Below, in pieces: positions 1,286 to 27,259 of a stretch of DNA of 64,000 bases. Position 1 is the first letter of the stretch. Every line of letters begins with the position of its first letter. Origin of the DNA: a virus. The DNA lies in IMG/VR virus record IMGVR_UViG_3300020048_000015, positions 64,001-128,000 of that record, one strand, 5' to 3'. The notes under the pieces were generated by a model. The model had not been told where the DNA came from. It ran no database searches and saw only the letters and a list, made by a program, of their open reading frames with translations. Position numbers and translations under genes: made by a program.

Positions 1286-2513
1286 ATAATTCATCTAATA
1301 ATCTTTCTTTTACATTTACATTATAGTCTTTCCAACTCACAGAAGGTTCCCATCTATCATCAATTCTTATTTTCGGAATATCTATAATTCCTTCTGATAA
1401 AGAATGATTAAATATTTCTGATACTTCTTCTGTTCCTAAGTAATCAATAGTTTCTTCAATATTATCCATAATGCCATCAAAATTTGTTATATCAACTTTT
1501 ATCTCAATTGGACTACCATATTCAAATTTAATAATTTCACCATAATATTCTAATGTACTTTTCAATTCTTCAGAATAATAATCAACTGCTAAATCCACTA
1601 ACATATCATCTTCAGTCCAAGTTAATATATGCCTTATAGTATAATCATCATCCAATTCTTTAACCATATCTTCTAAATCATCATATTCTTCCAAATTATC
1701 TTTTTTACTTAGATAATCTTTAATAATTTTTTTATTATCATTATCCAAACAAGAACGCAAATTATATTCCCATTGTCCATCATAGCTATGATATTCTAAA
1801 TATACCCAGCCTTCACCATCCATTATTTTTTCAAATAAATCAGTATTAACATCAACATAATTTTTAATTTCATCTGGTCTTATTTTTAAAATAAAATCTG
1901 TTTTTAAATCACTACTTGATAAAATTCCTAATTCAATTAACTTAACCTTAGTGTTAAATGTATGGAATACTTCATCAGGAATATCTTCACCAAGTTCTTC
2001 ACTAAACACTTCTTCTAATAAATGTCTAACAATTTTACAATCTTTTCTTAAAAACTTATATGTATCTTGTAAATCCAAATATGTTTTTAAATCAGGGAAG
2101 AATTTATACAAATCATTTATTGGATTCATGCCACATTCAAATTCATCTACACCATATTCAGCAACACCATCCAATGTTGTTAGATAATTATAACTACAAT
2201 CATAATCACCATCTATATATTTTGGACCACCTTTTAAATCTGTTAGTTTATTTCCATAACATTTAAAATCACCACCAACTTCTTTAGGCGCACCATCTAA
2301 CGTAGTTAATTGATTATTAATACAATTAAAACTACCAGTTACCCTATTAAATTTAAGTGGCAGTTTAGTTAATTTTTCTTTTCCTAACCAAACATTATCA
2401 TCTACATCAATTGATCCATCTGGATTTATTGTGTAGTTTTGAATGTTATATTTTTTACAAATCTTATCAATTTCTGATTGATCAAAATTTTCAAATAATT
2501 TTAAATATTTCAT
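1284..2513 (-). CDS. Variable LRR-like family protein (3 repeats) fused to an unrelated acidic ~200-aa C-terminal domain
   Basis: MKYLKLFENF leader, N-cap (NYTINPDGSIDV..LTKLPLKFN), three 21-aa repeats, partial C-cap (QDTYKFLRKDCKIVRHLLEE), then non-family sequence. Confidence 0.85.
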   Translation of the reverse strand: MKYLKLFENFDQSEIDKICKKYNIQNYTINPDGSIDVDDNVWLGKEKLTKLPLKFNRVTGSFNCINNQLTTLDGAPKEVGGDFKCYGNKLTDLKGGPKYIDGDYDCSYNYLTTLDGVAEYGVDEFECGMNPINDLYKFFPDLKTYLDLQDTYKFLRKDCKIVRHLLEEVFSEELGEDIPDEVFHTFNTKVKLIELGILSSSDLKTDFILKIRPDEIKNYVDVNTDLFEKIMDGEGWVYLEYHSYDGQWEYNLRSCLDNDNKKIIKDYLSKKDNLEEYDDLEDMVKELDDDYTIRHILTWTEDDMLVDLAVDYYSEELKSTLEYYGEIIKFEYGSPIEIKVDITNFDGIMDNIEETIDYLGTEEVSEIFNHSLSEGIIDIPKIRIDDRWEPSVSWKDYNVNVKERLLDEL

Positions 2514-3129
2514 ATATAAGTATATCCTTCTATTTTTTCTGGTAATTCTACATTTTTATTATAATATTCACTAAAATCTTTAATTGCATCTTCTAATAAA
2601 TGTTTAACTACTTTACAATCTTTTCTTAAAAAATTAAATGTTTCTTGATAATCTAAATATATCTTAACATCATCAAATAAATCTATTATAGGGCTTATTG
2701 GATTATAAGAACAATAAAAATCCCCACCAACTTCTTTAGGACAACCCATTAAACTGGTTAATTGATTATAATCACAATAAAAATTCCCACCAACATAATT
2801 TGGACAACCAACTAAAGATTTTAATTTATTATCAGAACAATAAAATCCTCCACCAACATATGTTGGTGATCCATCTAAAGATGTTAAATTATTTATATAA
2901 CAATAAAAATCCCCAGAAACTATATTGAATTTAAGTGGAAGCTCTGTTAATTTTTGTTTTCCTAACAAAACATGACCATTTACATCAATAGATCCATCAG
3001 GATTTATTGTGTAGTTTTGAATGTTATATTTTTTACAAATCTTATCAATTTCTGATTGATTAAAGTTTTCAAATAATTTTAAGTATTTCATATATAAGTA
3101 TATCCTTCTATTTTTTCTGGTAATTCAAC
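2403..3129. repeat. 149-bp direct repeat (2403-2551 and 2981-3129) spanning gene junctions
   Basis: Hand alignment gives 6 mismatches in 149 bp. Covers the C-cap end of one gene and the leader/N-cap of the next. Confidence 0.9.
2510..3091 (-). CDS. Variable LRR-like family protein (3 repeats)
   Basis: Leader + N-cap + 3x LTSLxGxPxxVGGxFxCxxNx + C-cap ending ELPEKIEGYTYI. Confidence 0.9.
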   Translation of the reverse strand: MKYLKLFENFNQSEIDKICKKYNIQNYTINPDGSIDVNGHVLLGKQKLTELPLKFNIVSGDFYCYINNLTSLDGSPTYVGGGFYCSDNKLKSLVGCPNYVGGNFYCDYNQLTSLMGCPKEVGGDFYCSYNPISPIIDLFDDVKIYLDYQETFNFLRKDCKVVKHLLEDAIKDFSEYYNKNVELPEKIEGYTYI

Positions 3130-3609
3130 TGATTGATTATAATATTCATTAAAATCGTTTAAAGCTTCTATTAATCTATGTTTAATAATTTTACAATCTT
3201 TTCTTAAAAAATTATATGTTTCTTGATATTCTAAATAAGTCTTAATATTTCTATCAAATAAATTTATTATTGGTGTTATTGGATTATCACTACACACAAA
3301 ATAACCACCAACTTCTTTTGGACAACCATCTAAACTGATTAAGTTATTTTCTGAACAATCAAAATCCCCACCAACATAATTCGGACTTCCTTCTAAATTT
3401 GTTAATTTATTAATCCAACATATAAAATTCCCACTAACTCTATTAAATTTTAATGGGATTTCAGTTAGCTTTTTAAATGCTAAATCAATATTACCATTAA
3501 CATCAATTGATCCATCAGAATTTATTGAATAATTTTTTATCCCAAAGAATCTACACATAGAATCAATTTCTGATTTATTGAAGTTTTCAAATAATTTTAT
3601 GTATTTCAT
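3088..3609 (-). CDS. Variable LRR-like family protein (2 repeats)
   Basis: MKYIKLFENF leader, N-cap, 2 repeats, C-cap ending ELPEKIEGYTYI. Confidence 0.9.
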   Translation of the reverse strand: MKYIKLFENFNKSEIDSMCRFFGIKNYSINSDGSIDVNGNIDLAFKKLTEIPLKFNRVSGNFICWINKLTNLEGSPNYVGGDFDCSENNLISLDGCPKEVGGYFVCSDNPITPIINLFDRNIKTYLEYQETYNFLRKDCKIIKHRLIEALNDFNEYYNQSVELPEKIEGYTYI

Positions 3610-3665
3610 ATATAAGTATATCCTTCTATTTTTTCTGGCAATTCAACACATTCATCATAATTCAT
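3606..3665 (-). CDS. 19-aa mini-ORF consisting only of the family C-terminal motif (MNYDECVELPEKIEGYTYI)
   Basis: Read by hand, not in ORF track. ATG at 3665, TGA overlaps the ATG of the 3609 gene. TAATATATA motif just upstream (3672-3680, minus). Confidence 0.75.
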   Translation of the reverse strand: MNYDECVELPEKIEGYTYI

Positions 3666-3823
3666 ATTTTATATATATTAAAAATACTTGGAACTTTTTT
3701 ATCAAAATATAAGTTATTACCTAAATATGAAATATTTAATTGGGTAGCAACGCTGAAATTAATTAGTGGTATAATATATCTATTTTTAAATAAAGGAAGG
3801 AGATTGATTTTTATATATAGTAT

Positions 3824-5074
3824 ATGAAAATAAAACCGAAAGGATATTGGACAAAAGAAAGATGCTTGGAAGAGGCTCTAAAATACAACACTAGAGGTGA
3901 ATTTCAAAAAAAATCAAAAAAAGCATATCGAGCCGCATTGAAAAATAAATGGATAGACGAGATCTGTTCACATATGGTTCAATTGTTAAATCCAAAAGGA
4001 TACTGGACAAAAGAAAGATGCCAAGAGGAAGCTCTGAAATATAAAACAAGGAAAGAATTTCGAGATAATTCTATTACTTCATACCATACATCATTAAAAG
4101 GTGAATGGATAGATGAAATATGTTTACATATGCCTTCCAAAGTGGAAACTCTTCCACTAGGATATTGGACAAAAGAAAGATGTAAAGAAGAATCTATAAA
4201 ATACACCACAAGGAGAGACTTTAGAATAAAATCAAGAACGGCATATTCTATATCTGTTAAAAGAGGTTGGTTAGATGAAGTTTGCCAACACTTACCTGGA
4301 GAAAAACCAAAGGGATATTGGACAAAAGAAAGATGTTTGGAAGAGGCATTAAAATATAAAACAAGAACTGAATTTGAAAAAAATTCAATTAGTGCTTGTG
4401 TCACTGCTCGTAAAAATAAATGGATAGATGAGATATGTTCACATATGATTATAGTTGGTAATAGATATAAAAGATGTATATATGCTATTGAATTTTCTGA
4501 TAATCATGCTTATATTGGTCTAACATATAATATACAGGTTAGATTTAAAAATCATTTGAGGACAGATAAGTCCAATAGAAGTTCGGTTCGATACCACATA
4601 GATAGAACGGGGATATCCCCAAAATTAATTCAACTAACAGAGTATATTGATACAAAGGAAGCTTCTGAATTAGAAGGAATAGAAAAGAATAAGTATGAAA
4701 ATAATGGATGGATTTTATTAAATAGATCTAAATGTGGCGCAGTTGGTGGTCATACTCCTATATGGACAAAAGAAAAGTGTATTGAGGAAGCATCAAAATA
4801 CAAAACAAATAAAGAGTTTAGGATTAAATCACCAAATGCCTACTGGGCTTGTCAAAGCAAAGGGTGGTTAGAAGAGGTGTGTGAAAATTTAGAATATGCT
4901 AATAACAACAATTGGACATTAGAAAAGTGTATTGAAGAGGCTTTAAAATATAAAACTAGGAAAGAGTTTGAAAAATTCGGAAAAGGAGCTTATGGAAAAT
5001 GTGTAAAAAGTGGTTGGCTAAATGAATTATACTCAAATATACCAGATATAGATAATTTTACTAGACGTAAGTAA
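3824..5074 (+). CDS. GIY-YIG endonuclease with six ~50-aa helical repeats (putative homing endonuclease)
   Basis: CIYAIEFSDNHAYIGLTYNIQVRFKNH (GIY-YIG motif). Four YWTKERC.EEALKYKTR.EF repeats before and two after the nuclease domain. Confidence 0.8.
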   Translation: MKIKPKGYWTKERCLEEALKYNTRGEFQKKSKKAYRAALKNKWIDEICSHMVQLLNPKGYWTKERCQEEALKYKTRKEFRDNSITSYHTSLKGEWIDEICLHMPSKVETLPLGYWTKERCKEESIKYTTRRDFRIKSRTAYSISVKRGWLDEVCQHLPGEKPKGYWTKERCLEEALKYKTRTEFEKNSISACVTARKNKWIDEICSHMIIVGNRYKRCIYAIEFSDNHAYIGLTYNIQVRFKNHLRTDKSNRSSVRYHIDRTGISPKLIQLTEYIDTKEASELEGIEKNKYENNGWILLNRSKCGAVGGHTPIWTKEKCIEEASKYKTNKEFRIKSPNAYWACQSKGWLEEVCENLEYANNNNWTLEKCIEEALKYKTRKEFEKFGKGAYGKCVKSGWLNELYSNIPDIDNFTRRK

Positions 5075-5106
5075 TAAAATTAATAAAATTTAATAATATA
5101 TAATAA

Positions 5107-6360
5107 ATGAAACTAAAGAAATATTTAGAGTTTATAAAAGAAGAAGTGAGAATTTCAAATGTATATATACCAACGTATGAAGAATGTGTTGAGATATGCT
5201 CCCAGGATGAATCTCCTTTTTATGAAACTAAATTAATAGTTGAATCCTATCCTGTTTCGCTTTTCAACTATAGGTTAGCAAAATATAGCGATTTCGTTAC
5301 ACCTTTGCCTTCTAAACCAAGCGTCTCTGGAAAAGAAATGCGTGGTTTATCATTTGTTTTTAACACAGATGGAACACTATATAATAGATATGTTTTACTT
5401 GAAAAGTTTTTTAACTTAAATCAAGTTCCTGAATCTATGTATTCAGTTATAAAAAACTATAAAATAAAATTTGTAAATAACAAAGAAGATGGAAGCATTG
5501 CATCATTTATCAAGCTTCCAAATGGAAAAGTAGTTGGTAAATCTAAGATGGGATTTGACAACGAACAAGCTAATGGTATAAACTATGTTTATAACAACAG
5601 ACCGAAAATAAAAAAGTTTGTTGATTGGTGCTTAAACAATGACATCATACCAATATTTGAATATGTATCACCAGCAAACAGAATTGTTCTAAGATATTTA
5701 GATGAAGATCTAATCTTATTAAGAATGCGTGATAATAAAACAGGAAAACATATTGATTTAAAAAATCATATGGACAAAATCGGTTCTATTAAAATTGCAC
5801 CTTTTGAAGATGATGAAAAAGATTTGGATAAGTTAATTGAAGTAACTGCTACACAAGTAGATAAGGAAGGAATCATTGTTCAAACCGAAGATTCTAATGG
5901 AAATGATTTATTCTTTAAGCTCAAAACACCGTGGTATGTAGCTCGCCACAATTTATTAACAAATGATTTATATAGAGAAAATATATTAATCGGATATATC
6001 TTAGATGATATGATAGATGATTTGTTAGGGCAAATACCAGAAGATGAGAAAGATACCCACGAAAGAATCAATAAAATTATTAATATTGTTAAAAAAGTTC
6101 TTGACCAAAAAGTAAACGATATTAAAAAATTATACCAGGTTTTTGTTTCTATGAACAAAGATAGAAAAGAATTTGCTTTGAAATACTTTAAAGATAAAAA
6201 CTTTAGTTGTGTTATGTCTATGAACAAAGGTGTTGAACCATATGAAATTGCTAAAGATTGGCTAAGAAAGGAAACTGATAGACTTTTTGCAGCAAGAGAT
6301 TTTCTACAAAAAATAGATTCAACAATCTTTTTCAAAGATGCAACAGAAGATGATAATTAA
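5107..6360 (+). CDS. T4 Rnl1-family RNA ligase
   Basis: KEMRGLSF, LEKFFNLNQ, motif I NKEDGS, FEYVSPANRIV, KEGIIV, FFKLKTPWY. N-terminal MKLKKYLEFIKE leader. Confidence 0.9.
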   Translation: MKLKKYLEFIKEEVRISNVYIPTYEECVEICSQDESPFYETKLIVESYPVSLFNYRLAKYSDFVTPLPSKPSVSGKEMRGLSFVFNTDGTLYNRYVLLEKFFNLNQVPESMYSVIKNYKIKFVNNKEDGSIASFIKLPNGKVVGKSKMGFDNEQANGINYVYNNRPKIKKFVDWCLNNDIIPIFEYVSPANRIVLRYLDEDLILLRMRDNKTGKHIDLKNHMDKIGSIKIAPFEDDEKDLDKLIEVTATQVDKEGIIVQTEDSNGNDLFFKLKTPWYVARHNLLTNDLYRENILIGYILDDMIDDLLGQIPEDEKDTHERINKIINIVKKVLDQKVNDIKKLYQVFVSMNKDRKEFALKYFKDKNFSCVMSMNKGVEPYEIAKDWLRKETDRLFAARDFLQKIDSTIFFKDATEDDN

Positions 6361-6364
6361 ACTT

Positions 6365-6396
6365 AAAAGGACTGTAAATTAATTTACAGTCCTTTT
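6365..6396. terminator. Bidirectional intrinsic terminator (perfect 32-bp palindrome)
   Basis: aaaaggactgtaaatt|aatttacagtcctttt between convergent genes. Confidence 0.85.
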
Positions 6397-6397
6397 T

Positions 6398-6721
6398 TTA
6401 ATCTAAATATTCAGCATCACCATCTTCTAAATCAATATATCCTTCAACCCATTTAGTAAAATCTACATTATCTAATCTATCAAACATTTCATTATAAGGA
6501 ACAACTCTATTTAATAAATCTTTTAATATTGAAACATATTCTTTATGTTTGGTAATATCACCAACTATACTTTCCAAATCATCAGGAAAAGTCAATAAGA
6601 TATCACTATCATTATAAAAGAAAGTTCCTTCATAATATACATCATCATATATAATACTTATCATTACTAAGATACCATTTTCCAGTTTACCCAAATATTC
6701 TAAAATTGATATATTAAACAT
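6398..6721 (-). CDS. Hypothetical protein
   Basis: 107-aa ORF in a tightly packed minus-strand run. Confidence 0.7.
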   Translation of the reverse strand: MFNISILEYLGKLENGILVMISIIYDDVYYEGTFFYNDSDILLTFPDDLESIVGDITKHKEYVSILKDLLNRVVPYNEMFDRLDNVDFTKWVEGYIDLEDGDAEYLD

Positions 6722-7576: not shown

Positions 7577-7615
7577 AAATATACTTTCTGATTTTCAAAA
7601 ATAATATATATTTAT

Positions 7616-8263
7616 ATGAAATACTTAAAATTATTTGAAAACTTCAATCAATCAGAAATTGATGAAATTTGTAGAAAATATAACATAAAAAACTATACTA
7701 TAAATCCAGATGGTTCTATTGATGTTGATGGGAATGTTTGGTTATCCGATATAAGTTTAACTGAATTACCATTAAAATTTAATAAAGTTTATGGAAGTTT
7801 TGATTGTTCTTGGAATAAATTGACTAATCTAGAAGGATGTCCTAATTATGTTGGTGATAATTTTTCTTGTGTAGCTAATAAATTAACCAGTTTAATAGGA
7901 TGTCCGAATTATGTTGGTGGGAATTTTCATTGTAATGGTAATAAATTGACAAGTTTAGAAGGTTGCCCAGATGAAGTTCGTGGTAATTTTCGTTGTGGTG
8001 CAAACAAATTAACTTCATTAGAAGGTCCTAAAGAAATAGGTGGTGAATTTACTTGTAATAGCAATCCTATAAACTTTATAACAAGATTATTTGGTGATGT
8101 TAAGATTTATTTAGAATATCAAGAAACATATAATTTTTTAAGAAAGGACAATAAAATAGTTAGACACTTATTAGAAGAAGCTTTAAAAGATTATAATGAA
8201 TATTATAAAAAATATGTATCAATTCCAACAATCTATAAAATAAAAGGATATACTTATATATGA
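7616..8263 (+). CDS. Variable LRR-like family protein (4 repeats)
   Basis: Leader + N-cap + 4 repeats + C-cap ending KIKGYTYI. Confidence 0.9.
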   Translation: MKYLKLFENFNQSEIDEICRKYNIKNYTINPDGSIDVDGNVWLSDISLTELPLKFNKVYGSFDCSWNKLTNLEGCPNYVGDNFSCVANKLTSLIGCPNYVGGNFHCNGNKLTSLEGCPDEVRGNFRCGANKLTSLEGPKEIGGEFTCNSNPINFITRLFGDVKIYLEYQETYNFLRKDNKIVRHLLEEALKDYNEYYKKYVSIPTIYKIKGYTYI

Positions 8264-8964
8264 AATACTTAAAATTATTTGAAAACTTCAATAGATTAGA
8301 AATTGATGAAATTTGTAAAGAATATTGGATAGCCAATTATACTATAAATCCAGATGGTTCTATTGATGTTGATGGTGATGTTAATTTTTATAAATTAAAT
8401 TTAACAAAACTACCACTTAAATTTAATAAAGTTTCTGGTAGTTTTGATTGTGCAAAGAATCAATTAACTAATCTAGAAGGATGTCCAAAAGAAGTAGGTG
8501 GTTCTTTTGATTGTTCTTATAATAAATTAACATCATTAGAATGGTGTCCTAATCATGTAGATGGTAGTTTTTATTGTCATAATAATAATTTAACAAATTT
8601 AGAAGGCTGTCCAAATTATGTTGGTTGTGATTTTGATTGTGCTGGTAATCAATTAACCAATTTAATAGGTTGTCCTAATTCAGTTGGTGATTTAAATTGT
8701 TCTTGTAATAATTTAACCACTTTAGAAGGTTATCCAGAAGAAATTGATGGTGACATTTGGATTACCGATAATCCAATATATGATGTTGTATGTTTATTTA
8801 ATTGTATTGTTAGATATTTAGAATATCAAGAAACATATAATTTTATAAGAAAAGATGGTAAAATAGTTAGACACTTATTAGAAGAAGCTTTAAAAGATTT
8901 TAATGAATATTATGATAGATCAGTTGAACTACCAGAAAAAATACAAGGATATACCTACATATGA
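8260..8964 (+). CDS. Variable LRR-like family protein (5 repeats)
   Basis: Leader + N-cap + 5 repeats + C-cap ending ELPEKIQGYTYI. Confidence 0.9.
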   Translation: MKYLKLFENFNRLEIDEICKEYWIANYTINPDGSIDVDGDVNFYKLNLTKLPLKFNKVSGSFDCAKNQLTNLEGCPKEVGGSFDCSYNKLTSLEWCPNHVDGSFYCHNNNLTNLEGCPNYVGCDFDCAGNQLTNLIGCPNSVGDLNCSCNNLTTLEGYPEEIDGDIWITDNPIYDVVCLFNCIVRYLEYQETYNFIRKDGKIVRHLLEEALKDFNEYYDRSVELPEKIQGYTYI

Positions 8965-9371
8965 AATACTTAAAATTATTTGAAGATTATACAAATTTAT
9001 ATCAATCTGATATTATAAGAATACAATTAATTAATGATTTTTTAGAAAATTGTAAGGAAAATCCTGATTATAATATTGAATTACCTGATTATAATGACTT
9101 AATAGATGATTGGGATGGATATGATGACCAAACATATATACAAAATAATGGAAATGAATTTATATATTGGGAAGGTTGGGTAAGAGCTTGTTGGCAAGCA
9201 GCATATAAAAAACCGGAATATAAAGATTTGGGTAAAGATTTAATTATTGAAAAAATTATAAAAGAAAGATTCCCAAGAATAGCAGAAGAGGTAAATTATA
9301 AAATAAACAATTATGATTATTTCAGACATGATGGAATATATATAATGAAAATAACTTTTACTAAAACTTAA
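8961..9371 (+). CDS. Hypothetical protein with MKYLKLFE leader, non-LRR body
   Basis: Starts at the conserved YTYI-ATGA junction. Body unrelated to the family. Confidence 0.75.
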   Translation: MKYLKLFEDYTNLYQSDIIRIQLINDFLENCKENPDYNIELPDYNDLIDDWDGYDDQTYIQNNGNEFIYWEGWVRACWQAAYKKPEYKDLGKDLIIEKIIKERFPRIAEEVNYKINNYDYFRHDGIYIMKITFTKT

Positions 9372-12068: not shown

Positions 12069-14111
12069 ATGCCACTAATTTTAAGACAAACCAAAGGTAG
12101 TAAACTCACCATTCAAGAAATGGATGATAATTTATTGTATGTTAATAACCTTACTGAAGTTACCCATGCTGAACTTGTTAATTTAATTGACACAAACGAT
12201 TTAGTTCCTGGACAACACTATTTAATAACAGATTTTCAAACTTGTTATGACCGACCTGACTACGACCAAAACAAAGGTGCTATTGTGGTTTCGAATGCTT
12301 CGTATTTTCAAGGTACAGTCGAACCAATCGTGGTTCTGGCAACATCAACCAATACTTTGGCAATTGATGCTTATCAACCAGCTTATCCAAATGATAAAAT
12401 CAAGTATGATGTTACTTATAGCTCAACCGAATCTGCTGAGCTTGCATTTGGTAGAATTACTGAAAGAGTTGATAACTATAACAACCGAACAGATTACGAC
12501 CACAGAACTATTGAATTTAAAAGATATAGATTCTATTACTTCAGTAGAGAAACACCTCAAACGGGTACAATGGAATTATTAAATGATGGAACTGTAAATG
12601 GAGCAGGTACAACATTCACAAATTATTCAGTAGGACAGGTTATTGCTTATCCTAATTCAGTTGAAGGATTTTTTAGAATTGAGTTAATAGACTCAGATAC
12701 CCTGATGACTGTAAGCGGATTATCTATTAATTCCTTTGGTGGAAGCGGTGAATTTTATATTGCTAATTCAGGAAATTACGATAGTTACCATAGAAGTAAT
12801 GTTGATGACCCAACAGATTTTAATTTGTACACCACATTCGGTGATGCAATTGATGAAAGTAGAGCAATAAATAATTATATCGGAGATTACTGTAATTTAC
12901 ACATTGAAGATAGTGAAGGCGATTTTCTTCTTGCAAATAATGTTTTCAAAATTGGGGAATATAATAACAATACCATTGGAAATGGATCTTATAACAATAC
13001 TTTTAATGACGATTGTAACAATAACCGAATAGGAAATTATTGTTATAACAATATTATTAATAGTAGTTTTTATAGAAATCAAATAGGAAATGACTTCAAT
13101 AACAATTGGTTGGATAGCGATTGGGGTTTTGATTTTCAAAATAATCAAATAGGTAATCAATTTAATAATAATCTAATATACCGTGAATTCCAAGGTAATG
13201 ATGTCGGTAATGGATTTAATCAAAATGTAATTTATCAAGATTTTTATGATAATAGAATAAAAGATTATTTTAATAATAACACAATTGGTGACTTTGAAGA
13301 CATTGGCGCAGGAAATTTTGAAGATAACGTAATTGGAAATAATTTTAAAGGTAATTCAACATTAGGACAATTTACACATAATCAAATAGGAAATGATTTT
13401 TATTCTAATGGAACTGGAGATAGTTTTACTTATAATGTTATTGGAAATAATACTTTTTCTAATAACATAGGAGAAAACTTTGGTTATAATCAAATTGCTA
13501 ATATATTTAATAATAATACAGTTGCGAGTAATTTTGGTTACAGTGGAGCAAGCGGAAAAGGCAATAAGATTGGAAATAATTTCCAAGGTAATACCATAGG
13601 CGAAGACTTCTATTCTAATGTTATTTGTGATAGTTTTATAAATAATACGATAGGTTTTGAATTCCAAAATAATGATATTAAAGTTTCTGTTAGCGGTAAC
13701 GATTTTAGAAGCCAACAAGGTGGATTACTTAGTATTGTTGAAGATAATTTTCCAACCCCAGGTAGTGCAGATGATACATACGTAGGAAGTCAAAAAAGTA
13801 CCTCAGGGATTGGTCAAAATTGCACCATTGCCGTTACTGTTTCTCGTGGTAATGTAGTAAGTGCATCTATTAACGATGCTGGTTATGGTTATGTCATCGG
13901 TGATACAATCACTATTAGTGGTGCTCTTTTTGGAGGAAAAGATGGTGATGATTTAGTAGTCTCAGTTAATGGCAAGGCGGCTACAACGACAACTTTTGTA
14001 ACTGACCCAACTTCTTGTACAATTTTCAACGATTCAACAGGTAGTACAAAATTGATGTATATTGATGGAAAAGGTACTTTAAATGTAGTAAATGTAACAT
14101 CCCAATCATAA
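12069..14111 (+). CDS. Tail-fibre/adhesin-like protein with Asn-rich beta-helix repeats
   Basis: N-terminal RQTKGSKLTIQEMDDN anchor-type motif seen in phage fibres. Central ~11-aa NxIGNxFxxN repeats. C-terminal GYGYVIGDTITISG beta-rich segment. Confidence 0.65.
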   Translation: MPLILRQTKGSKLTIQEMDDNLLYVNNLTEVTHAELVNLIDTNDLVPGQHYLITDFQTCYDRPDYDQNKGAIVVSNASYFQGTVEPIVVLATSTNTLAIDAYQPAYPNDKIKYDVTYSSTESAELAFGRITERVDNYNNRTDYDHRTIEFKRYRFYYFSRETPQTGTMELLNDGTVNGAGTTFTNYSVGQVIAYPNSVEGFFRIELIDSDTLMTVSGLSINSFGGSGEFYIANSGNYDSYHRSNVDDPTDFNLYTTFGDAIDESRAINNYIGDYCNLHIEDSEGDFLLANNVFKIGEYNNNTIGNGSYNNTFNDDCNNNRIGNYCYNNIINSSFYRNQIGNDFNNNWLDSDWGFDFQNNQIGNQFNNNLIYREFQGNDVGNGFNQNVIYQDFYDNRIKDYFNNNTIGDFEDIGAGNFEDNVIGNNFKGNSTLGQFTHNQIGNDFYSNGTGDSFTYNVIGNNTFSNNIGENFGYNQIANIFNNNTVASNFGYSGASGKGNKIGNNFQGNTIGEDFYSNVICDSFINNTIGFEFQNNDIKVSVSGNDFRSQQGGLLSIVEDNFPTPGSADDTYVGSQKSTSGIGQNCTIAVTVSRGNVVSASINDAGYGYVIGDTITISGALFGGKDGDDLVVSVNGKAATTTTFVTDPTSCTIFNDSTGSTKLMYIDGKGTLNVVNVTSQS

Positions 14112-21273: not shown

Positions 21274-23046
21274 ATGAATAATAAATATAACAACACATTT
21301 ATATTAACATCAATAATTATGTTTATATTCCTTTTAATAAAACCACTAACAATATTTGATGTTATTACTATTTCAAAATTTTTAGAATGGATTGAATTTG
21401 TATGTTTTTTAATATTCATACCAACCTTTTTTATAATATTATATGATCTAAAAATTAAAAATAAAATAGATGTAAATAAAATAATGTATCTAAAAAGATT
21501 AAATAATGTTTTAATATCACAATCAAAAGATAGTCTATTTTACAATGGTGATTTAGAAGAAGAATCAAAAGAAATAATAAAGGAAATTTCAACAACCCTA
21601 AATATAGATAGATCTTCTATATGGTTATATAGCAATAATAAAAAAACACAAATAATCTGCCAACAATTATATTCAAAGAAAAATGATTCTTATACACAAA
21701 ATATAAGAATACCTACTAAAAAGCATGAATCATATTTCAATGCATTAAATAATAAGATTACAATAATCGCCAATAATACAGAAACAAATCCATTAATAAA
21801 ATCATTCTATATTGAATATTTAAAACCATTAGGTATAAAATCAACAATGGATATTCCAATTATTTATAATGGGGATGTAAAAGGTGTTATATCTATTGAA
21901 AGTTTTGATAAAAGATCTTGGAAAGAAGAAGAAATAAACTTTGTTCAAGTATTATCATCATTATATTCATTAGCTTGGTCAATAAATAAATCCAATGAGT
22001 TAAATAATAGAATAAAAGTAAAAGAACAAGAAATAAGAAACAAAATGAATGCCATAAATAAATCAAATTTAGTAATGGAATTAGATTTAAACGGATATGT
22101 ATTAAATGCAAATGATAATTTTTTATTATTAACTGGTTATGATAAAAATGAAATAATAGGTAAAAAATATACAACATTCACAAAAATTGATAATTCTTTT
22201 ATTTGGGAAAAATTAATGAAAGGTGTATATCATTCTGATAAATTTGAAATTCTTAAAAAGAACGGAGATTATATTTGGATAAGAGCTACTTATAATCCAA
22301 TTTTAGATGTAGAAGGTAAAATCTATAAAATAATTAAAATTGCAGTTGATATAAATGAATCAGTTTTACAAAGAGAAGAAATTGAAAAGAAAAACATATA
22401 TTTAGAACATGCAGCTAAAATAATTAGACATGATATGCATTCTGGTATAAACACATATCTACCAAGAGGTATATCATCATTAGAAAGAAGACTACCAAAG
22501 GAAGATATTGAAAGACTTAAATTAGAATCACCATTAAAACTATTAAAAGAAGGTCTTAAACATACACAATTAGTTTATAAAGGAGTTTATGAATTTACAA
22601 ATTTAGTTAAACATAATTCTGAATTAAACAAGACAGAATGTAATATAAAACAAATATTACAAAATTATTTAACATCAACTGTATATTTATCACAAGTATT
22701 ATTAGATGATAATTTACCAATAATACAAGTAAATGAATCACTTTTTTGCACAGCTATTGATAATTTAATAAGAAATGGATTAAAATATAATGATAGTACT
22801 AATAAATTCGTTAAAATCTATTCTGAAAATAAATATATAGTAATTGAAGATAATGGTAGAGGTTTATCACAGGAAGACTTAGATAATTATAGTAAACCAT
22901 ATTCAAGAAGAAAAGATCAAAAAGAATCTGGAACTGGGTTAGGATTGAATATATGTTTAGCAATATTAAAAGAACATGGATTCAGTATAACAACAGAAAA
23001 GGTTATTCCAAATGGAACAAAAATTAAAATTAAAATTTATGATTAA
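21274..23046 (+). CDS. Membrane sensor histidine kinase (2 TM-GAF-PAS-HisKA-HATPase)
   Basis: N-terminal hydrophobic helices; GAF (LNIDRSSIW..LGIKSTMDIPI); PAS (LDLNGYVLNANDNF..GYDKNEIIGK..WIRATYNPI); H-box RHDMHSG; N-box DNLIRNGLKYN; EDNGRG; GTGLGL. Confidence 0.92.
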   Translation: MNNKYNNTFILTSIIMFIFLLIKPLTIFDVITISKFLEWIEFVCFLIFIPTFFIILYDLKIKNKIDVNKIMYLKRLNNVLISQSKDSLFYNGDLEEESKEIIKEISTTLNIDRSSIWLYSNNKKTQIICQQLYSKKNDSYTQNIRIPTKKHESYFNALNNKITIIANNTETNPLIKSFYIEYLKPLGIKSTMDIPIIYNGDVKGVISIESFDKRSWKEEEINFVQVLSSLYSLAWSINKSNELNNRIKVKEQEIRNKMNAINKSNLVMELDLNGYVLNANDNFLLLTGYDKNEIIGKKYTTFTKIDNSFIWEKLMKGVYHSDKFEILKKNGDYIWIRATYNPILDVEGKIYKIIKIAVDINESVLQREEIEKKNIYLEHAAKIIRHDMHSGINTYLPRGISSLERRLPKEDIERLKLESPLKLLKEGLKHTQLVYKGVYEFTNLVKHNSELNKTECNIKQILQNYLTSTVYLSQVLLDDNLPIIQVNESLFCTAIDNLIRNGLKYNDSTNKFVKIYSENKYIVIEDNGRGLSQEDLDNYSKPYSRRKDQKESGTGLGLNICLAILKEHGFSITTEKVIPNGTKIKIKIYD

Positions 23047-23476
23047 TTCAATATTATTAGTGGATGATGAGGATTTATTCCATTTAGTATTTGAAGATGC
23101 TTGTAGTTTATTAGATATAACACTATCATTAAAAAGTATAAATAGTGCTGATGAAGCAGAAATATTATTTAAAAATTGGTTTGAAACAAAAGAATATTTA
23201 AAAAGACCAGAATGTGTATTTGTTGACTTAAATATTGTTGGATCAACATTTGATGGGATTGAACTTATTAAGAAAATAAATTTTCAATATGGTAATAATG
23301 TTGTTATTGGAATTATATCTTCATCTGATGATATAACAGAACAACATAAAGCAAAAGATGTGGGTGCGCAATTTTGGATTATCAAATCAGATGATATTGA
23401 GCCAAGATTGGAACAATTTAAAAAAGATTATGATGGATTCAAAACAAAATCTATACCATTTAAAATCTATAAATAA
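23039..23476 (+). CDS. Single-domain CheY-like response regulator
   Basis: ILLVDDED, VFVDLNI, IISSS, WIIKS. Start placed at the ATG overlapping the kinase stop. Confidence 0.9.
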   Translation: MINSILLVDDEDLFHLVFEDACSLLDITLSLKSINSADEAEILFKNWFETKEYLKRPECVFVDLNIVGSTFDGIELIKKINFQYGNNVVIGIISSSDDITEQHKAKDVGAQFWIIKSDDIEPRLEQFKKDYDGFKTKSIPFKIYK

Positions 23477-23477
23477 T

Positions 23478-23933
23478 ATGAAATATTTAAAATTATTTGA
23501 AAATTTTGATCAAACTAAAATTGATGCTATTTGTAAAAAATATGGTATATGGAATTATACAATAAATACTGATGGATCCATTGATGTTAATACTGATGTT
23601 TTATTATATAGAAGAAATCTAACTAAATTACCATTGAAATTTAATAGGGTTTCTGGTTCGTTCCATTGTCAGGATAATTTACTAACCAATTTAGATGGTT
23701 ATCCAAAAGAAATTGGTGGTTTTTCTTTTTATGATCATAATCCAATAACACAAATAATAGATTTATTTGTTAATGCTGACACATATATAGAGTACCAAGA
23801 AACATATAATTTTGTTAGAAAGGATTGTAAAATTGTTAAACACCTTTTAGAAGAAGCTTTAAAGGACTATAATGAATATTATAATAAGAATAAAAAATTA
23901 CCACAAGAAATAAAAGGATATACTTATATATAA
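23478..23933 (+). CDS. Variable LRR-like family protein (1 repeat)
   Basis: Start at MKYLKLFENF (not 23358). N-cap, 1 repeat, C-cap ending EIKGYTYI. Confidence 0.9.
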   Translation: MKYLKLFENFDQTKIDAICKKYGIWNYTINTDGSIDVNTDVLLYRRNLTKLPLKFNRVSGSFHCQDNLLTNLDGYPKEIGGFSFYDHNPITQIIDLFVNADTYIEYQETYNFVRKDCKIVKHLLEEALKDYNEYYNKNKKLPQEIKGYTYI

Positions 23934-24577
23934 TGAAATACTTAAAATTATTTGAAAACTTTGATCAATCAACAATTGATGATATATGTGAAGAATATGG
24001 TATAAAAAACTATACTTTAAATGCTGATGGATCTATTGATGTAAATGGTAATGTTTGGTTATTCTGTAAAGATCTAACTGAATTACCATTAAAATTTAAT
24101 AAGGTTACTGGTTATTTCAATTGTTCTGCTAATAAATTAACCAATTTAGAAGGTGCGCCTAATTATGTAGGAACTGGTTTTTTTTGTTTTAATAATAACC
24201 TAACAAGTTTAATAGGTGGTCCTAAAGAAGTCGTTGGTAAATTTTATATAAAAGGTAATTATTTAACCAATTTAATAGGTGGTCCTAAAGAAGTTATTGG
24301 GGATTTTGATTGCTCAGATAATAAATTAACTAGTTTAGATGGATATCCTAACTATATAAGTGGTTATTTTACTCGCAACGAAAATCCAATAGATACAATA
24401 ATTATATTATTTAGAGGTATTAAAACATATTTAGAATACCAAGAAACATATAATTTTATAAGAAAAGATGGTAAAATAATTAAGCATTTATTTGAAGAAG
24501 CAATTAAAGATTATAATGAATATTATGATGATTGTGTTGAAATGCCAGAAAAAATAGAAGGATATACTTACATATGA
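23933..24577 (+). CDS. Variable LRR-like family protein (4 repeats)
   Basis: Leader, N-cap, 4 repeats, C-cap ending EMPEKIEGYTYI. Confidence 0.9.
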   Translation: MKYLKLFENFDQSTIDDICEEYGIKNYTLNADGSIDVNGNVWLFCKDLTELPLKFNKVTGYFNCSANKLTNLEGAPNYVGTGFFCFNNNLTSLIGGPKEVVGKFYIKGNYLTNLIGGPKEVIGDFDCSDNKLTSLDGYPNYISGYFTRNENPIDTIIILFRGIKTYLEYQETYNFIRKDGKIIKHLFEEAIKDYNEYYDDCVEMPEKIEGYTYI

Positions 24578-25095
24578 AATACTTAAAATTATTTGAAAAT
24601 TTTAATCAATCTGAAATTGATGCTATTTGTAAACAATATAAAATACAAAATTACACAATAAATCCAAATGGATCTATTGATGTTGATGGCAATGTTTATT
24701 TACCTTTAAGAAATCTAAATAAACTACCACTTAAATTTAATAAAGTAACTGGTTGGTTTGATTGTTCTGATAATGAATTGAATAACTTAGAAGGTTGTCC
24801 AAATTATGTAGGTGATATTTTTAATTGTGCTTATAATGAATTAACCAATTTAGATGGTTATCCAAAAGAAGTTGGTCGTGGTTTTTATTGGGATGGAAAT
24901 CCCATATCAGAAATTATATATTTATTTGGATATAGTATTAAAATTTATTTGGAGTATCAAGAAACATATAATTTTGTTAGAAAAGATTGTAAAATAATTA
25001 AGCACTTATTAGAAGAAGCTTTAAAGGACTATAATGAATATTATAATAGTCAGAAAGAATTGCCAAAAAAAATAGATGGATATACTTATATATGA
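24574..25095 (+). CDS. Variable LRR-like family protein (2 repeats)
   Basis: Leader, N-cap, 2 repeats, C-cap ending KKIDGYTYI. Confidence 0.9.
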   Translation: MKYLKLFENFNQSEIDAICKQYKIQNYTINPNGSIDVDGNVYLPLRNLNKLPLKFNKVTGWFDCSDNELNNLEGCPNYVGDIFNCAYNELTNLDGYPKEVGRGFYWDGNPISEIIYLFGYSIKIYLEYQETYNFVRKDCKIIKHLLEEALKDYNEYYNSQKELPKKIDGYTYI

Positions 25096-25688
25096 AAATA
25101 ATATTATATGATAACACCAAAAAACAATTGATTGATTTATATAACAATCAAAATATCCATATTGAAGGAAATATATTAAAACTTATTGATACATCAAATG
25201 ATGTTGAATTTGAAGAATATATAAATAAATTCATAGAAAACGATAAAGATATGAGAAGAAAACGTTTAGTAATTACTAAACGTGTTCAACAACAAAATAA
25301 TGAATTATTGAAAGCAAAGGATGAATATGAAAGAATACAAACTGAATTAAGTCAATCATTAATAAAAACCCAAGAGTCTGCCATTGAAGCTGAAAAACTT
25401 AGAAAAGAAGCAGAAAATGCAAAAATAGAAGCAGAAAACGATTTAGATATTTTACAAAAGAAAAAACAAAATGAATTAATCGGTAAAATAGTAGTAGTTG
25501 CTTTATGGATTATAATAGGTGTTGGTATAGTAACAACAGGTGTTTATTTATTTTCAATATTTAGTGGAATTGATACACAATTAATAGCCTCAACATGGAG
25601 TAACATCATTGGTATATTATTAACAAATGCATTTAGTATAATTGGTACTATTATGGGTGTTAAATATGCAAGTGAAATGAAAAAATAA
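25092..25688 (+). CDS. Coiled-coil protein with two C-terminal TM helices
   Basis: Long heptad region, then two hydrophobic segments. Coupled to the YTYI junction. Confidence 0.75.
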   Translation: MKIILYDNTKKQLIDLYNNQNIHIEGNILKLIDTSNDVEFEEYINKFIENDKDMRRKRLVITKRVQQQNNELLKAKDEYERIQTELSQSLIKTQESAIEAEKLRKEAENAKIEAENDLDILQKKKQNELIGKIVVVALWIIIGVGIVTTGVYLFSIFSGIDTQLIASTWSNIIGILLTNAFSIIGTIMGVKYASEMKK

Positions 25689-25695
25689 AATAGAA

Positions 25696-25755
25696 ATGAA
25701 AATTAAATTATTTAAGGATTTTATCATAAATGAATTAAAGTCAAATACATATTAA
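25696..25755 (+). CDS. 19-aa mini-ORF made almost only of the leader (MKIKLFKDFIINELKSNTY)
   Basis: Read by hand, not in ORF track. Confidence 0.55.
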   Translation: MKIKLFKDFIINELKSNTY

Positions 25756-25774
25756 TTTAATTAGTTTTTTCATA

Positions 25775-26158
25775 TTATCTTCTATGATTTATTGGCATAT
25801 CAGAAACAATTTGAACTTGAATACCTAAATTATGCCCATCAATATCTAAGTCTTTATATTCTGAATTAGAATAATGTATATTTCTACTATCAAATGTAAT
25901 TGCTTTTGGTCCATACATTTTTTGGTGTTCAATTTGTTTCTTTTCTTGTTCTTGTTTTAATTGCAAATTATATAATTCATCAATAGTCATTCTATTATAT
26001 GGATTATCAACAATAGGTTGTTCAATAGGTTTATTATATTCTGGATTTTTATATCCATATTTAGCCAACAAAGCAGCAGCCTCAGCACTTGAAACATCAA
26101 CATTATTTGTTGTTTCTACTTGTTGATTATCTATTATTCTTACTTCTGGTTTATGCAT
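25775..26158 (-). CDS. Hypothetical protein
   Basis: 127-aa ORF. Confidence 0.75.
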   Translation of the reverse strand: MHKPEVRIIDNQQVETTNNVDVSSAEAAALLAKYGYKNPEYNKPIEQPIVDNPYNRMTIDELYNLQLKQEQEKKQIEHQKMYGPKAITFDSRNIHYSNSEYKDLDIDGHNLGIQVQIVSDMPINHRR

Positions 26159-26210
26159 TTAATTTATTATTTTTATAAAATCTCTAAATTTAAGTATCAT
26201 TTTTTTTAAA

Positions 26211-26891
26211 TTAAATTATATCAAAAACAATGCAGGTATCACCAAAATTTTCACCTTTGTAAGACCACCAAATTCCACCCTCCCTCAAGACATCAATCTT
26301 AGGTGGTTTTGATACAAATTCATATCCATCGAAACTTCCATATCTATATTCACTTAACCAATTATACTTTCTAGTATCATAACTTCTATTACCAATATTT
26401 TTCCATTTTCCACATCCCTGAAGATCGTAATTTACATATATAATTCTTGTTCCAACATTAGCAGTCTTGAATATTTGAGAAATTATATCATACATATCTT
26501 TATCTTTAACCATTGGTCTATACATATATATAACATCTAAATTAGAATAATTGAATTTTTTAGCATCTCCATATACTACTGATATATCTTTGTGATATTC
26601 TTTATATTTAGTTTGTATTTCTATTCCACTTGCATCCATCCCAAACTTTTCTGCTAACCTTACAATATTACCAAATCCACATCCAATATCAACAAATTTA
26701 GAACCTTTTAAGTATTTTTCAAAAATAGATGTAATGAATGTACCAACTGGTATGGCATCAAATTTATTATCTAAAGGGGTATTATTTCTATCTTTAAAAC
26801 CACCAATTCTTTTGGCTTTTCTATATAGACTTAGATAGAATCTATCAATTTCAGATTGATCAAAGTTTTCAAATAATTTTAAGTATTTCAT
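26211..26891 (-). CDS. Class I SAM-dependent methyltransferase with LRR-family leader
   Basis: FVDIGCGFG, GIE, GDA, DVIYMYRP. First 16 aa identical to the 1284-2513 gene. Confidence 0.85.
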   Translation of the reverse strand: MKYLKLFENFDQSEIDRFYLSLYRKAKRIGGFKDRNNTPLDNKFDAIPVGTFITSIFEKYLKGSKFVDIGCGFGNIVRLAEKFGMDASGIEIQTKYKEYHKDISVVYGDAKKFNYSNLDVIYMYRPMVKDKDMYDIISQIFKTANVGTRIIYVNYDLQGCGKWKNIGNRSYDTRKYNWLSEYRYGSFDGYEFVSKPPKIDVLREGGIWWSYKGENFGDTCIVFDII

Positions 26892-27259
26892 TATATATAA
26901 GTATAATATTTAATTTCTTTTGGTAATTCTACCTGTTTATCATAATATTCATTAAAATCTTCAATAGCTTCTTCCAATCTATGTTTAACAATTTTAAAAT
27001 CCTTTCTTAAAAAATTATATGTTTCTTGATAGTCTAAATAAATATTCACATCCCCATTAAATAAATCTACTATATCCCATCCTACAATTCTATTAAATTC
27101 AAGTGGTATTTTAGTTAAATCCATCTTATAAAAATCAACATCAGCAAGAACATCAATTGTTCCATCGGTATTTATTGTATAGTATTTAATGTTATATTCT
27201 TTACATATTTTAATAATTTCTGATTTATTAAAGTTTTCAAATAATTTTATGTATAGCAT
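26891..27259 (-). CDS. LRR-like family protein with zero repeats (N-cap fused to C-cap)
   Basis: LTKIPLEFNRIVG joins directly to WDIVDLF..YLDYQETYNFLRKD..EIKYYTYI. Confidence 0.85.
   Translation of the reverse strand: MLYIKLFENFNKSEIIKICKEYNIKYYTINTDGTIDVLADVDFYKMDLTKIPLEFNRIVGWDIVDLFNGDVNIYLDYQETYNFLRKDFKIVKHRLEEAIEDFNEYYDKQVELPKEIKYYTYI

What the first reader, a model, noticed from the sequence alone, without database searches (positions are those of the whole stretch)
2510..27259. Conserved ~50-bp gene junction makes these genes a chainable cassette array
Seen: junctions at 3609, 3091, 2513, 8260, 8961, 23933, 24574, 25092 and 26891 fit the DNA consensus GAAAAAATAGAAGGATATACTTATAT(ATA)ATGAAATACTTAAAATTATTTGAAAA. 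Some deviate: the 25092 gene lacks the leader half, and 26891 lacks the AAGGA core. The codons for EKIEGYTYI also form the initiation region of the next gene (AAGGA ~11 nt before ATG; ATGA or TAATG overlap). Non-family genes (8961, 25092, 26211) are plugged in at the same junction. Established analogy: integron cassettes and T4-type PeSL-mediated modular shuffling. Inference: the junction is a homologous-recombination hub that lets cassettes be added, excised as circles or reordered while staying translationally coupled, without a dedicated integrase.
Basis: partly seen in the sequence, partly recalled or inferred. Interest (0 to 1): 0.85.

Follow-up and report, generated by a model that had tools for sequence, protein, structure and literature searches.

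The report
Conserved junction in phage LRR arrays
The repeated ~50-bp "junction" is real, but it is just where the conserved end of one tandemly repeated phage gene meets the conserved start of the next; nothing indicates a dedicated recombination site, although genes are gained and lost at these boundaries.

Summary
Observation confirmed. All nine junctions lie where stated and fit the consensus far above chance.

Interpretation only partly supported. The window belongs to a huge, 25%-GC phage with at least 25 two-cap leucine-rich-repeat (LRR) paralogs. The left half of the junction encodes their C-terminus (EKIEGYTYI). The right half encodes a disordered N-terminal leader (MKYLKLFENF).

- **Synonymous sites:** they are no more conserved at the junction than elsewhere in the caps (excess 0.115 vs 0.117, p=0.52).
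- **AAGGA:** it is not a ribosome site. None of 244 genes has GGAG, GAGG or AGGAG upstream.
- **ATGA overlap:** it is this phage's usual gene packing (31 of 185 same-strand pairs have a 4-nt or 1-nt overlap; 9 are family).
- **Junction element:** no hairpin, promoter or terminator lies there.
- **Exact homology tracts:** they are as long inside the caps as across the junction.

Relatives do differ by whole genes at these boundaries. Three LRR genes sit inside a conserved regulator/membrane-protein pair. There is a stepwise series at 25775-27304. One block flanked by inverted arrays is inverted.

Leader-only genes cluster behind LRR genes (5 of 13, p≈3e-4). So ordinary homologous recombination among caps is plausible, but a special hub is not shown.

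The parts
1284..2513 (-). Last gene of array 1. It has an LRR-family N-cap, repeats and part of the C-domain, then an unrelated C-terminal extension of about 230 aa (409 aa in all).
2510..3091 (-). Two-cap LRR paralog, 193 aa. ATGA overlaps at both ends.
3088..3609 (-). Two-cap LRR paralog, 173 aa. First complete gene of array 1.
3606..3665 (-). 19-codon remnant ORF (M + NYDECVELPEKIEGYTYI) that keeps only the end of a C-cap. It has an ATGA overlap with the 3609 start. A TAATATATA promoter-like motif lies at 3672-3680.
7616..8263 (+). Two-cap LRR paralog, 215 aa. First gene of array 2. A TAATATATA motif at 7602-7610 precedes it, with no C-cap upstream.
   Evidence: AlphaFold2 model: mean pLDDT 91.1; residues 1-8 (MKYLKLFE, the start of the leader) below 50.
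8260..8964 (+). Two-cap LRR paralog, 234 aa.
8961..9371 (+). Non-family gene (136 aa) that carries only the first 8 residues of the leader (MKYLKLFE). It joins the previous C-cap by an ATGA overlap.
   Evidence: no Pfam family.
23478..23933 (+). Two-cap LRR paralog, 151 aa. It starts 1 nt after the stop codon of the response-regulator gene.
23933..24577 (+). Two-cap LRR paralog, 214 aa. TAATG-type junction.
   Evidence: A 52-nt exact inverted repeat with the 26891 junction.
24574..25095 (+). Two-cap LRR paralog, 173 aa.
25092..25688 (+). Resident membrane-protein gene without a leader. In relatives it overlaps the response-regulator gene directly, so the three LRR genes lie inside a conserved gene pair.
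   Evidence: L051, L052.
26211..26891 (-). Methyltransferase-like gene (226 aa). Its first 16 residues match the LRR N-cap. TAATG junction with the gene upstream. The gene is absent at this position from a closely syntenic relative.
   Evidence: (MetW, E=2e-4).
26891..27259 (-). Two-cap family member with no LRR repeats (122 aa). It starts MLY because its first two codons lie inside a 56-bp perfect palindrome (27254-27309) shared with the divergent amidase gene.

Best explanation
The junction is a by-product of gene layout, not an element in its own right.

The phage carries a large family of small LRR proteins. All of them start with a disordered leader (MKYLKLFENF) followed by a conserved N-terminal domain. 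All of them end in a conserved helical C-domain with the tail EKIEGYTYI. When such genes lie head to tail in a genome that routinely overlaps stop and start codons (ATGA), the codons of the tail abut the codons of the leader. That gives about 50 bp of repeated DNA.

The conservation is selection on the two protein termini combined with strong AT codon bias. The arrays are operons. Array 1 (via its remnant ORF), array 2 and the 27259 gene follow a TAATATATA motif. The third array, at 23478, has none and follows the kinase/regulator genes.

Inferred, not shown:
- Arrays grow, shrink and invert by ordinary homologous recombination anywhere in the conserved caps and repeats.
- Non-family genes behind an array acquired or refreshed their leader by recombination or deletion within the leader or N-cap of a neighbouring family gene. 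This explains the different fusion points (8, 11, 16 and about 22 residues).
- The leader itself is most likely a protein-level tag, possibly like a T4 capsid-targeting propeptide.
For: **Synonymous sites.** Excess synonymous identity in junction codons is 0.147 against 0.149 in other conserved columns (13 genes, p=0.51). With 25 genes and family-specific codon usage it is 0.115±0.048 against 0.117±0.025 (p=0.52).

**Leader under protein-level selection.** 72% of codon differences in the leader are synonymous (454 against 178), compared with 30% in the N-domain.

**No Shine-Dalgarno.** 0 of 244 genes have GGAG, GAGG or AGGAG upstream. G content upstream of starts is 2-12%. 9 of the 11 AAGGA cases are family tails.

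**Overlap is ordinary.** 31 of 185 same-strand neighbouring pairs have a 4-nt or 1-nt overlap, and only 9 of these are family junctions. 34% of genes start ATGAAA.

**No junction element.** Folding z-scores run from -1.0 to +1.35 at 8 junctions. Promoter-like sites number 46 against 45.3 in shuffles.

**Homology not concentrated.** Exact repeats of at least 20 nt number 85 inside N-caps (longest 61), 75 inside C-caps (longest 41) and 11 across starts (longest 52).

**Leader is independent of the junction.** It occurs on 23 ORFs, mostly without a C-cap in front. Methyltransferase orthologues carry diverged, shifted leaders such as MSELKYVKLFEDF. Residues 1-8 of the model have pLDDT below 50.

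**Same layout, different DNA.** An independent 18-gene array (L063) has the same ATGA layout but a different C-cap (...NDYEIR) and a diverged leader, so its junction DNA differs.

**Promoter motif.** 44 of 63 TAATATATA sites lie 0-40 nt upstream of a start codon, against 1.8 expected, and none lies at an internal junction.
Against: - The tail half alone shows a somewhat higher synonymous excess (0.19-0.26 ± 0.05-0.09). Part of this is forced by the embedded start codon, but a weak DNA-level constraint is not excluded.
- A 52-nt exact repeat joins the 23933 and 26891 junctions. Tracts of 37-43 nt join the three junctions of array 1. My rough estimate is that about 0.04 such 52-nt tracts would arise by chance, which suggests recent exchange at junctions.
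- Whole-gene differences between relatives fall exactly at these boundaries.
- Leader-only genes are enriched behind LRR genes: 5 of 13, binomial p≈3e-4. That p assumes about 5% of genes are family members, which is my estimate.
- No reads were available, so ongoing rearrangement could not be tested.
Confidence: 0.75

Rival explanations
1. The junction, and not just any conserved part of the genes, is the preferred crossover site for homologous recombination. Whole genes can then be inserted, looped out as circles or reordered while keeping the reading frame and coupling. This would be analogous to PeSL-mediated shuffling in T4-type phages.
For: - Gene content differs between relatives by whole genes at these boundaries. 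RR|TM is adjacent in L051 and L052 but holds three LRR genes here. The series o25775|amidase (L057), o25775|LRR0|amidase and o25775|MT|LRR0|amidase (here) looks stepwise.
- The block RnlA...T5orf172 is inverted relative to L050. Here it is flanked by oppositely oriented arrays that share a 45-nt exact inverted repeat across the 3091 and 8260 junctions.
- A 52-nt exact repeat joins the junctions at 23933 and 26891.
- A RecA/UvsX-type gene lies in the other piece of the same phage.
- PMC2839356 cites Singer et al. 1982 for the T4 system needing only small (<50 bp) patches of homology.
Against: - There is no excess synonymous conservation at the junction.
- Homology tracts of equal or greater length are more numerous inside the caps.
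- There is no hairpin, promoter or terminator.
- Fusion points of leader-only genes vary from 8 to about 22 residues, so they are not at one site.
- The remnant at 3606-3665 marks a breakpoint about 57 nt inside a C-cap, not at the junction.
- In L063 the N-cap and C-cap of the same gene have unlinked histories (Mantel r≈0). This points to crossovers inside genes. Linkage across junctions is 0.21 at one window size and about 0 at the others, so the test does not single out the junction.
- The paralogs form a star tree with no recent junction-bounded duplicates.
Confidence: 0.13
2. The junction is conserved as an RNA-level signal for translational coupling. The ribosome would terminate and reinitiate at ATGA, helped by the sequence around it. 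This would keep all array members expressed in fixed ratios in a host that does not use Shine-Dalgarno sites.
For: - All internal junctions overlap by 4 nt or 1 nt.
- The region is unstructured (mean z slightly positive) and A/U-rich, like the genome's other start regions.
- The 19-codon remnant ORF keeps an overlap with the first gene of array 1.
- The tail half has the highest synonymous excess.
Against: - The same overlaps occur at 22 unrelated gene pairs with unrelated sequence.
- The first genes of arrays 2 and 3 and the 27259 gene (7616, 23478, 27259), and free-standing leader genes such as 35102 and 61371, start without any C-cap upstream.
- Synonymous sites in the leader vary freely (excess 0.04±0.05).
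- L063 achieves the same layout with different sequence.
Confidence: 0.08

Closest known systems
PeSL (promoter-early stem-loop) cassettes of T4-type phages RB49/phi1 (Arbiol et al. 2010, PMC2839356)
   Same: A repeated patch of 50-100 bp flanks small accessory genes in a large phage. Relatives differ by whole-gene insertions and deletions at those patches. No dedicated integrase is involved; the phage's own recombination system would do the work.
   Different: PeSLs are intergenic. They contain a strong sigma-70-type promoter, a G/C stem-loop terminator and a Shine-Dalgarno site, and mini-circles were shown by inverse PCR. Here there is no intergenic space, promoter, stem-loop or Shine-Dalgarno. 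The repeat is coding sequence of two protein termini, and no circles have been looked for.
T4 internal-protein genes (IPI, IPII, IPIII, Alt) sharing an N-terminal capsid-targeting sequence (reviews PMC9026906, PMC3012670)
   Same: A short N-terminal peptide of about 10 residues is shared by otherwise unrelated proteins of a T4-related phage. The proteins behind it vary between relatives. The peptide here ends in L-F-E, which resembles the L/I-x-E cleavage context of the T4 head protease (that context is from my own knowledge).
   Different: T4 has a handful of such genes. This phage has dozens, including a family of at least 25 LRR genes. Neither cleavage nor packaging is shown. No T4-type head protease was found on this fragment, and that search was uninformative. 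Looser versions of the motif occur even on enzymes such as the RNA ligase.
Integron gene-cassette arrays
   Same: Promoterless genes are stacked in one orientation behind an upstream promoter. Gene content varies by whole units.
   Different: Integrons need attC hairpin sites, an attI site and an IntI tyrosine recombinase, and cassettes are separated by attC. No structured site exists here, and the genes overlap instead. I did not search for an integrase.
Tandemly expanded repeat-protein families of giant viruses and huge phages, such as ankyrin, FNIP/IP22 and LRR paralog families (from my own knowledge)
   Same: Dozens of paralogs have conserved capping regions and a variable number of short repeats. 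They are arranged partly in tandem and evolve by unequal crossing-over.
   Different: This family has a specific pair of caps plus a portable leader that is also found on unrelated genes. At least 4,293 database clusters match it, and every name shown among the best 120 is 'hypothetical protein'.

Membership tests
PeSL regulatory cassette | Intergenic composite motif with a sigma-70-type early promoter | tested here: not met
   The genes overlap by 4 nt or 1 nt, so there is no intergenic space. Promoter-like sites number 46 against 45.3 in shuffles.
PeSL regulatory cassette | Stable stem-loop (terminator or attenuator) within the motif | tested here: not met
   Eight junctions ±50 nt give z-scores from -1.0 to +1.35. 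There are no terminator-like sites at junctions.
PeSL regulatory cassette | Flanked genes differ between related phages by insertion, deletion or replacement | tested here: met
   RR|TM in L051 and L052 against RR|LRRx3|TM here. A three-state series at 25775-27304.
PeSL regulatory cassette | Mini-circles formed by recombination between flanking motifs | not testable with these tools
   This needs reads or inverse PCR.
Integron cassette array | attC recombination sites that fold as imperfect hairpins between cassettes | tested here: not met
   No structure beyond shuffles at any junction.
Integron cassette array | IntI tyrosine recombinase with an adjacent attI site | not tested
I ran no integrase search.
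T4-type capsid-targeting leader (CTS) | Short N-terminal peptide shared by otherwise unrelated proteins | tested here: met
   23 ORFs in the 182.7-kb record start M[KL][YH][LI]K[LI]FE, and 9 of them have non-LRR bodies. Residues 1-8 are disordered in the model.
T4-type capsid-targeting leader (CTS) | Removal by the prohead protease, and presence of the mature protein in virions | not testable with these tools
   A search with PF03420 on this fragment found nothing, but the control also rang nowhere, so the result is uninformative. Virion proteomics is needed.
Leucine-rich repeat proteins | Tandem 20-29-residue LxxLxLxxN-type repeats that form a solenoid | tested here: inconclusive
   Repeats of about 21 residues are seen in the alignment (size also from the 21-aa length steps in L063). 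Pfam LRR_4 scores only 19.2 bits against a cut-off of 27. The AlphaFold2 model is confident (pLDDT 91.1). Its best PDB matches are IpaH, SspH1 and YopM LRR domains, but these are weak (E 0.03-0.1, TM up to 0.42).

The most novel reading that the evidence does not exclude
The leader and N-cap, together with the abutting C-cap, work as a portable homology patch. The phage's own recombinase would use it to swap or add payload genes behind a common N-terminal targeting tag. This would be a much enlarged version of the T4 internal-protein locus: dozens of LRR and other proteins are tagged for the same destination, and the repertoire is reshuffled between related huge phages.
Probability: 0.2. Interest if true: 0.7.

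Novelty: new member of a known kind. Interest (0 to 1): 0.33.

Why it matters
If the junction were a selected recombination hub, it would be an integrase-free cassette system inside coding sequence, which would be new. The evidence points instead to an ordinary cause: conserved protein termini of tandem paralogs in a genome that overlaps its genes.

What stays of interest is the biology underneath. A huge phage, probably larger than 450 kb, keeps at least 25 LRR paralogs with strongly conserved caps. The same disordered leader sits on unrelated proteins. Relatives differ by whole genes at these sites. These genes are candidates for host-interaction or injected proteins, and the arrays offer a natural system for studying how repeat families expand in huge phages.

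Tried and rejected
1. **A supposed independent relative.** I first treated IMG/VR record G001 (276 kb; loci L001-L035) as an independent relative. I compared identities within and between genomes and built a tree. I rejected that reading. A 353,919-bp ENA contig is 100% identical to G001 over 17.6 kb and also carries proteins identical to window genes. G000 and G001 are therefore pieces of one phage. The equal identities and the star tree describe one genome's paralogs, not concerted evolution.
2. **Mantel tests on the 18-gene array L063**. N-cap against C-cap of the same gene gave r≈0. Linkage across junctions gave r=0.21 (p=0.02) at 150 nt and about 0 at 60, 90 and 240 nt. This does not discriminate between crossover sites.
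3. **PF03420 (T4 head protease)** on the record gave no hit, and the control rang nowhere, so the search was uninformative.
4. **Foldseek against PDB** gave only weak LRR matches.
5. **Three closer relatives** from JGI sample 3300059473 came back with gene maps but no DNA. Their junction sequences could not be compared.
6. **An independent assembly** (L053) is 100% identical over 10,972 nt and shows no order variant.
7. **Pfam's weak 'Plasmid_parti' match** to the C-cap (18.7-20.4 bits, below the 22.1 cut-off) was disregarded.


Full report
**What is there**

The window is bases 64001-128000 of a 182,728-bp, roughly 25%-GC virus record. The ORF list and translations show a paralogous family. 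Each member has four parts:
- a leader, MKYLKLFENF;
- a conserved N-domain (...SEID.IC..Y.I.NYTINPDGSIDV...LPLKFN.V.G);
- zero to about seven repeats of roughly 21 residues (N.LT.L.G.P..VGG.F.C);
- a conserved C-domain (YLEYQETYNFLRKD.KIVKHLLEEALKDYNEYY..VELPEKIEGYTYI).

Both halves are far above chance: 13 hits against 1.27 expected, and 15 against 0.00.

Across the whole record, 23 ORFs start with the leader and 26 ORFs are LRR-related.

An AlphaFold2 model of the 7616 protein is confident (pLDDT 91.1). Residues 1-8 (MKYLKLFE) are disordered, and the fold begins near residue 12. The best PDB matches are bacterial LRR domains, but they are weak.

At least 4,293 database clusters match the family. 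Every name shown among the best 120 is 'hypothetical protein'.

**Is the junction DNA conserved beyond what the proteins require?**

I built a codon alignment of 13 two-cap genes. For each column I compared the fraction of same-residue pairs that use the same codon with the expectation from genome codon usage.
- Conserved columns of the junction (leader plus tail) have a mean excess of 0.147.
- All other conserved cap columns have 0.149 (permutation p=0.51).
- With 25 genes and family-specific codon usage the values are 0.115±0.048 and 0.117±0.025 (p=0.52).
- In the leader, 72% of codon differences are synonymous, against 30% in the N-domain. The residues are fixed while third positions drift.

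The tail half alone is somewhat higher (0.19-0.26). Part of that is forced, because the last codon must end in A to form the embedded ATG.

**The other functional claims**

- **Shine-Dalgarno.** None of 244 predicted genes has GGAG, GAGG or AGGAG in positions -20 to -4. Upstream regions are 50-65% A and 2-12% G. Of the 11 genes with AAGGA upstream, 9 are family junctions, where it encodes (E/K/Q)-G. So AAGGA is not a ribosome-binding site here.
- **Overlap.** Overlaps of 4 nt or 1 nt occur at 31 of 185 same-strand neighbouring pairs, and 22 of these are unrelated genes. 34% of genes start ATGAAA. The overlap is this genome's normal packing.
- **Structure.** Eight junctions folded with 50-nt flanks give z-scores from -1.0 to +1.35.
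- **Promoters and terminators.** Sigma-70-type promoter matches equal the shuffled expectation, and no terminator sits at a junction.
- **What does mark array starts.** A TAATATATA motif does. 44 of its 63 sites in the record lie 0-40 nt upstream of a start codon, against 1.8 expected. Sites lie at 3672-3680, 7602-7610 and 27274-27282, and none lies at an internal junction. The arrays are therefore operons, not self-contained cassettes.

**Is the junction the best recombination substrate?**

Maximal exact repeats of at least 20 nt between family loci were counted:

| Location | Number | Longest tracts (nt) |
|---|---|---|
| Inside N-caps | 85 | 61 |
| Inside C-caps | 75 | 41 |
| Across start codons | 11 | 52, 45, 43, 38, 37 |
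| In repeat bodies | 14 | 29 |

Homology is therefore available all along the caps, and in-register crossovers anywhere in them would give intact chimeric genes.

**Comparative evidence**

G001, which I first took for a relative, is another piece of the same phage. It adds 12 two-cap genes and shows the same pattern, with leader-bearing non-family genes attached behind LRR genes at 35601, 120759 and 249912.

True relatives were found through neighbouring genes.
1. **RR/TM pair.** In L051 and L052 the response-regulator gene overlaps the homologue of the 25092 membrane-protein gene directly (TAATG, ATGA). In the window, three LRR genes lie exactly between them. So 25092 is a resident gene.
2. 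**25775-27304 series.** L057 has the o25775 homologue next to the amidase gene. A syntenic 30.9-kb contig has a 122-aa gene, the size and position of the LRR0 gene, between them but no 226-aa (methyltransferase-sized) gene; I equated its genes with the window's by size and order only, because no DNA was returned. The window has both.
3. **Solitary LRR gene.** That same contig has a solitary 215-aa family gene between two genes that are adjacent in this phage.
4. **Inversion.** Relative to L050, the block from the RNA ligase to the T5orf172 gene is inverted between the DnaK and FKBP genes. In the window the block is flanked by oppositely oriented arrays that share a 45-nt exact inverted repeat.

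Gene content and order at these sites are clearly plastic. These comparators share only about 45-75% protein identity, so they are relatives, not strains.

**Origin of the non-family genes at junctions**

- Leader-only genes follow a two-cap gene in 5 of 13 cases (binomial p≈3e-4, assuming about 5% of genes are family members, which is my estimate).
- Their similarity to the LRR N-cap ends at different points: 8 residues (8961), 11 (61371), 16 (26891) and about 22 (35102).
- Orthologues of the methyltransferase carry older, diverged and even shifted leaders (MSELKYVKLFEDF, MKNLKHIKLFESF). The window copy matches the LRR N-cap for 16 residues. It also shares a 52-nt exact tract with the 23933 junction.

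I infer exchange or deletion within the leader or N-cap between neighbours. The leader itself is old and is selected as a peptide.

**An independent array**

L063 holds 18 tandem genes, nearly all with ATGA overlaps. It has a diverged leader (MKY[IL][KR].FNE) and a different C-cap (...LLKNDYEIR), and gene lengths step by 21 residues. The layout recurs while the junction sequence does not. Mantel tests there show no linkage between the two caps of a gene, and no robust linkage across junctions.

**Comparison with known systems**

PeSLs are intergenic promoter plus stem-loop plus Shine-Dalgarno motifs with demonstrated mini-circles (PMC2839356). Three of their defining features were tested here and not met. 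Integron attC hairpins are also absent.

The nearest functional analogy is the T4 internal-protein genes. Unrelated proteins there share a 10-19-residue capsid-targeting propeptide, and the genes vary between relatives (PMC9026906; PMC3012670). Cleavage and packaging are untested here. The phage does encode a RecA/UvsX-type protein, so homologous recombination among these repeats is feasible.

**Verdict**

- The junction is best read as the passive seam between two conserved protein ends (confidence 0.75).
- Recombination among family members very likely shapes the arrays.
- Nothing singles out the seam as a selected hub (0.13) or as a coupling signal (0.08).

The scan has other notes on this same DNA about the LRR family and the shared leader. 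This report adds tests of the junction itself.

Noticed in passing
window 27254-27309: A 56-bp perfect palindrome spans the divergent start region of the 27259 (-) and 27304 (+) genes. It includes the first two codons of both genes (ATGCTA) and two overlapping TAATATATA motifs. This explains why this family member starts MLY instead of MKY.
   Followed up: partly
whole record; window sites 3672, 5094, 7602, 27274, 27281, 35089, 38980, 61358 and others: TAATATATA is a promoter-like motif. 44 of 63 sites lie 0-40 nt upstream of a start codon on the same strand, against 1.8 expected. 10 of the 44 genes behind it carry the strict leader, and many others carry looser versions (K.FE.F-like), including the RNA ligase (MKLKKYLEFIKE).
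   Followed up: partly
window 3606-3665 (-): A 19-codon ORF made of M plus the last 18 residues of a family C-cap sits directly behind a TAATATATA motif and overlaps the start of the 3609 gene by ATGA. It is a relic of a deletion inside a family gene, next to a GIY-YIG gene.
   Followed up: partly
G000 and G001 (L001-L035, L055): The 182.7-kb record and the 276.4-kb IMG/VR record 3300020048_006428 appear to be pieces of one phage. A 353,919-bp ENA contig is 100% identical to G001 over 17.6 kb and also encodes proteins identical to window genes. Both records end inside family genes.
   Followed up: partly
L063:220-15530: An 18-gene tandem array of a sister subfamily in a 68.9-kb contig labelled Candidatus Muirbacterium halophilum. 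Nearly all genes have ATGA overlaps, and lengths step by 21 residues (224 to 413 aa). At 12206/12213 the start of the leader is duplicated (ATGAAATACA then ATGAAATATC).
   Followed up: partly
G001:172913-173686 (L064) and L063:16044-17270: A RecA/UvsX-type gene lies within 2 kb of a long LRR array in both the focal phage and the independent L063 contig.
   Followed up: no
window 3824-5074 (+): A GIY-YIG nuclease gene (Pfam E=1.2e-6). Its product also carries about seven copies of a roughly 45-residue module (KGYWTKERC.EEA.KY.TR.EF...W..E.C.H). It sits between array 1 and the RNA ligase gene, and relatives lack it at that place.
   Followed up: no
window 1-1248 (+) and 21274-23476 (+): The phage encodes a DnaK/Hsp70 homologue (about 60% identical to 624-630-aa DnaK-like genes in L039 and L050). 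It also encodes what looks, from its sequence, like a PAS-type histidine kinase plus response regulator pair (not scanned against Pfam), which is conserved in relatives L051 and L052.
   Followed up: no
genome 143355 (-), about 15 kb beyond the window's end: About 36 nt containing the promoter-like motif and the first codons of the leader are duplicated in tandem just upstream of a family gene (ttttaatatatatagatATGAAATACATAA appears twice).
   Followed up: no
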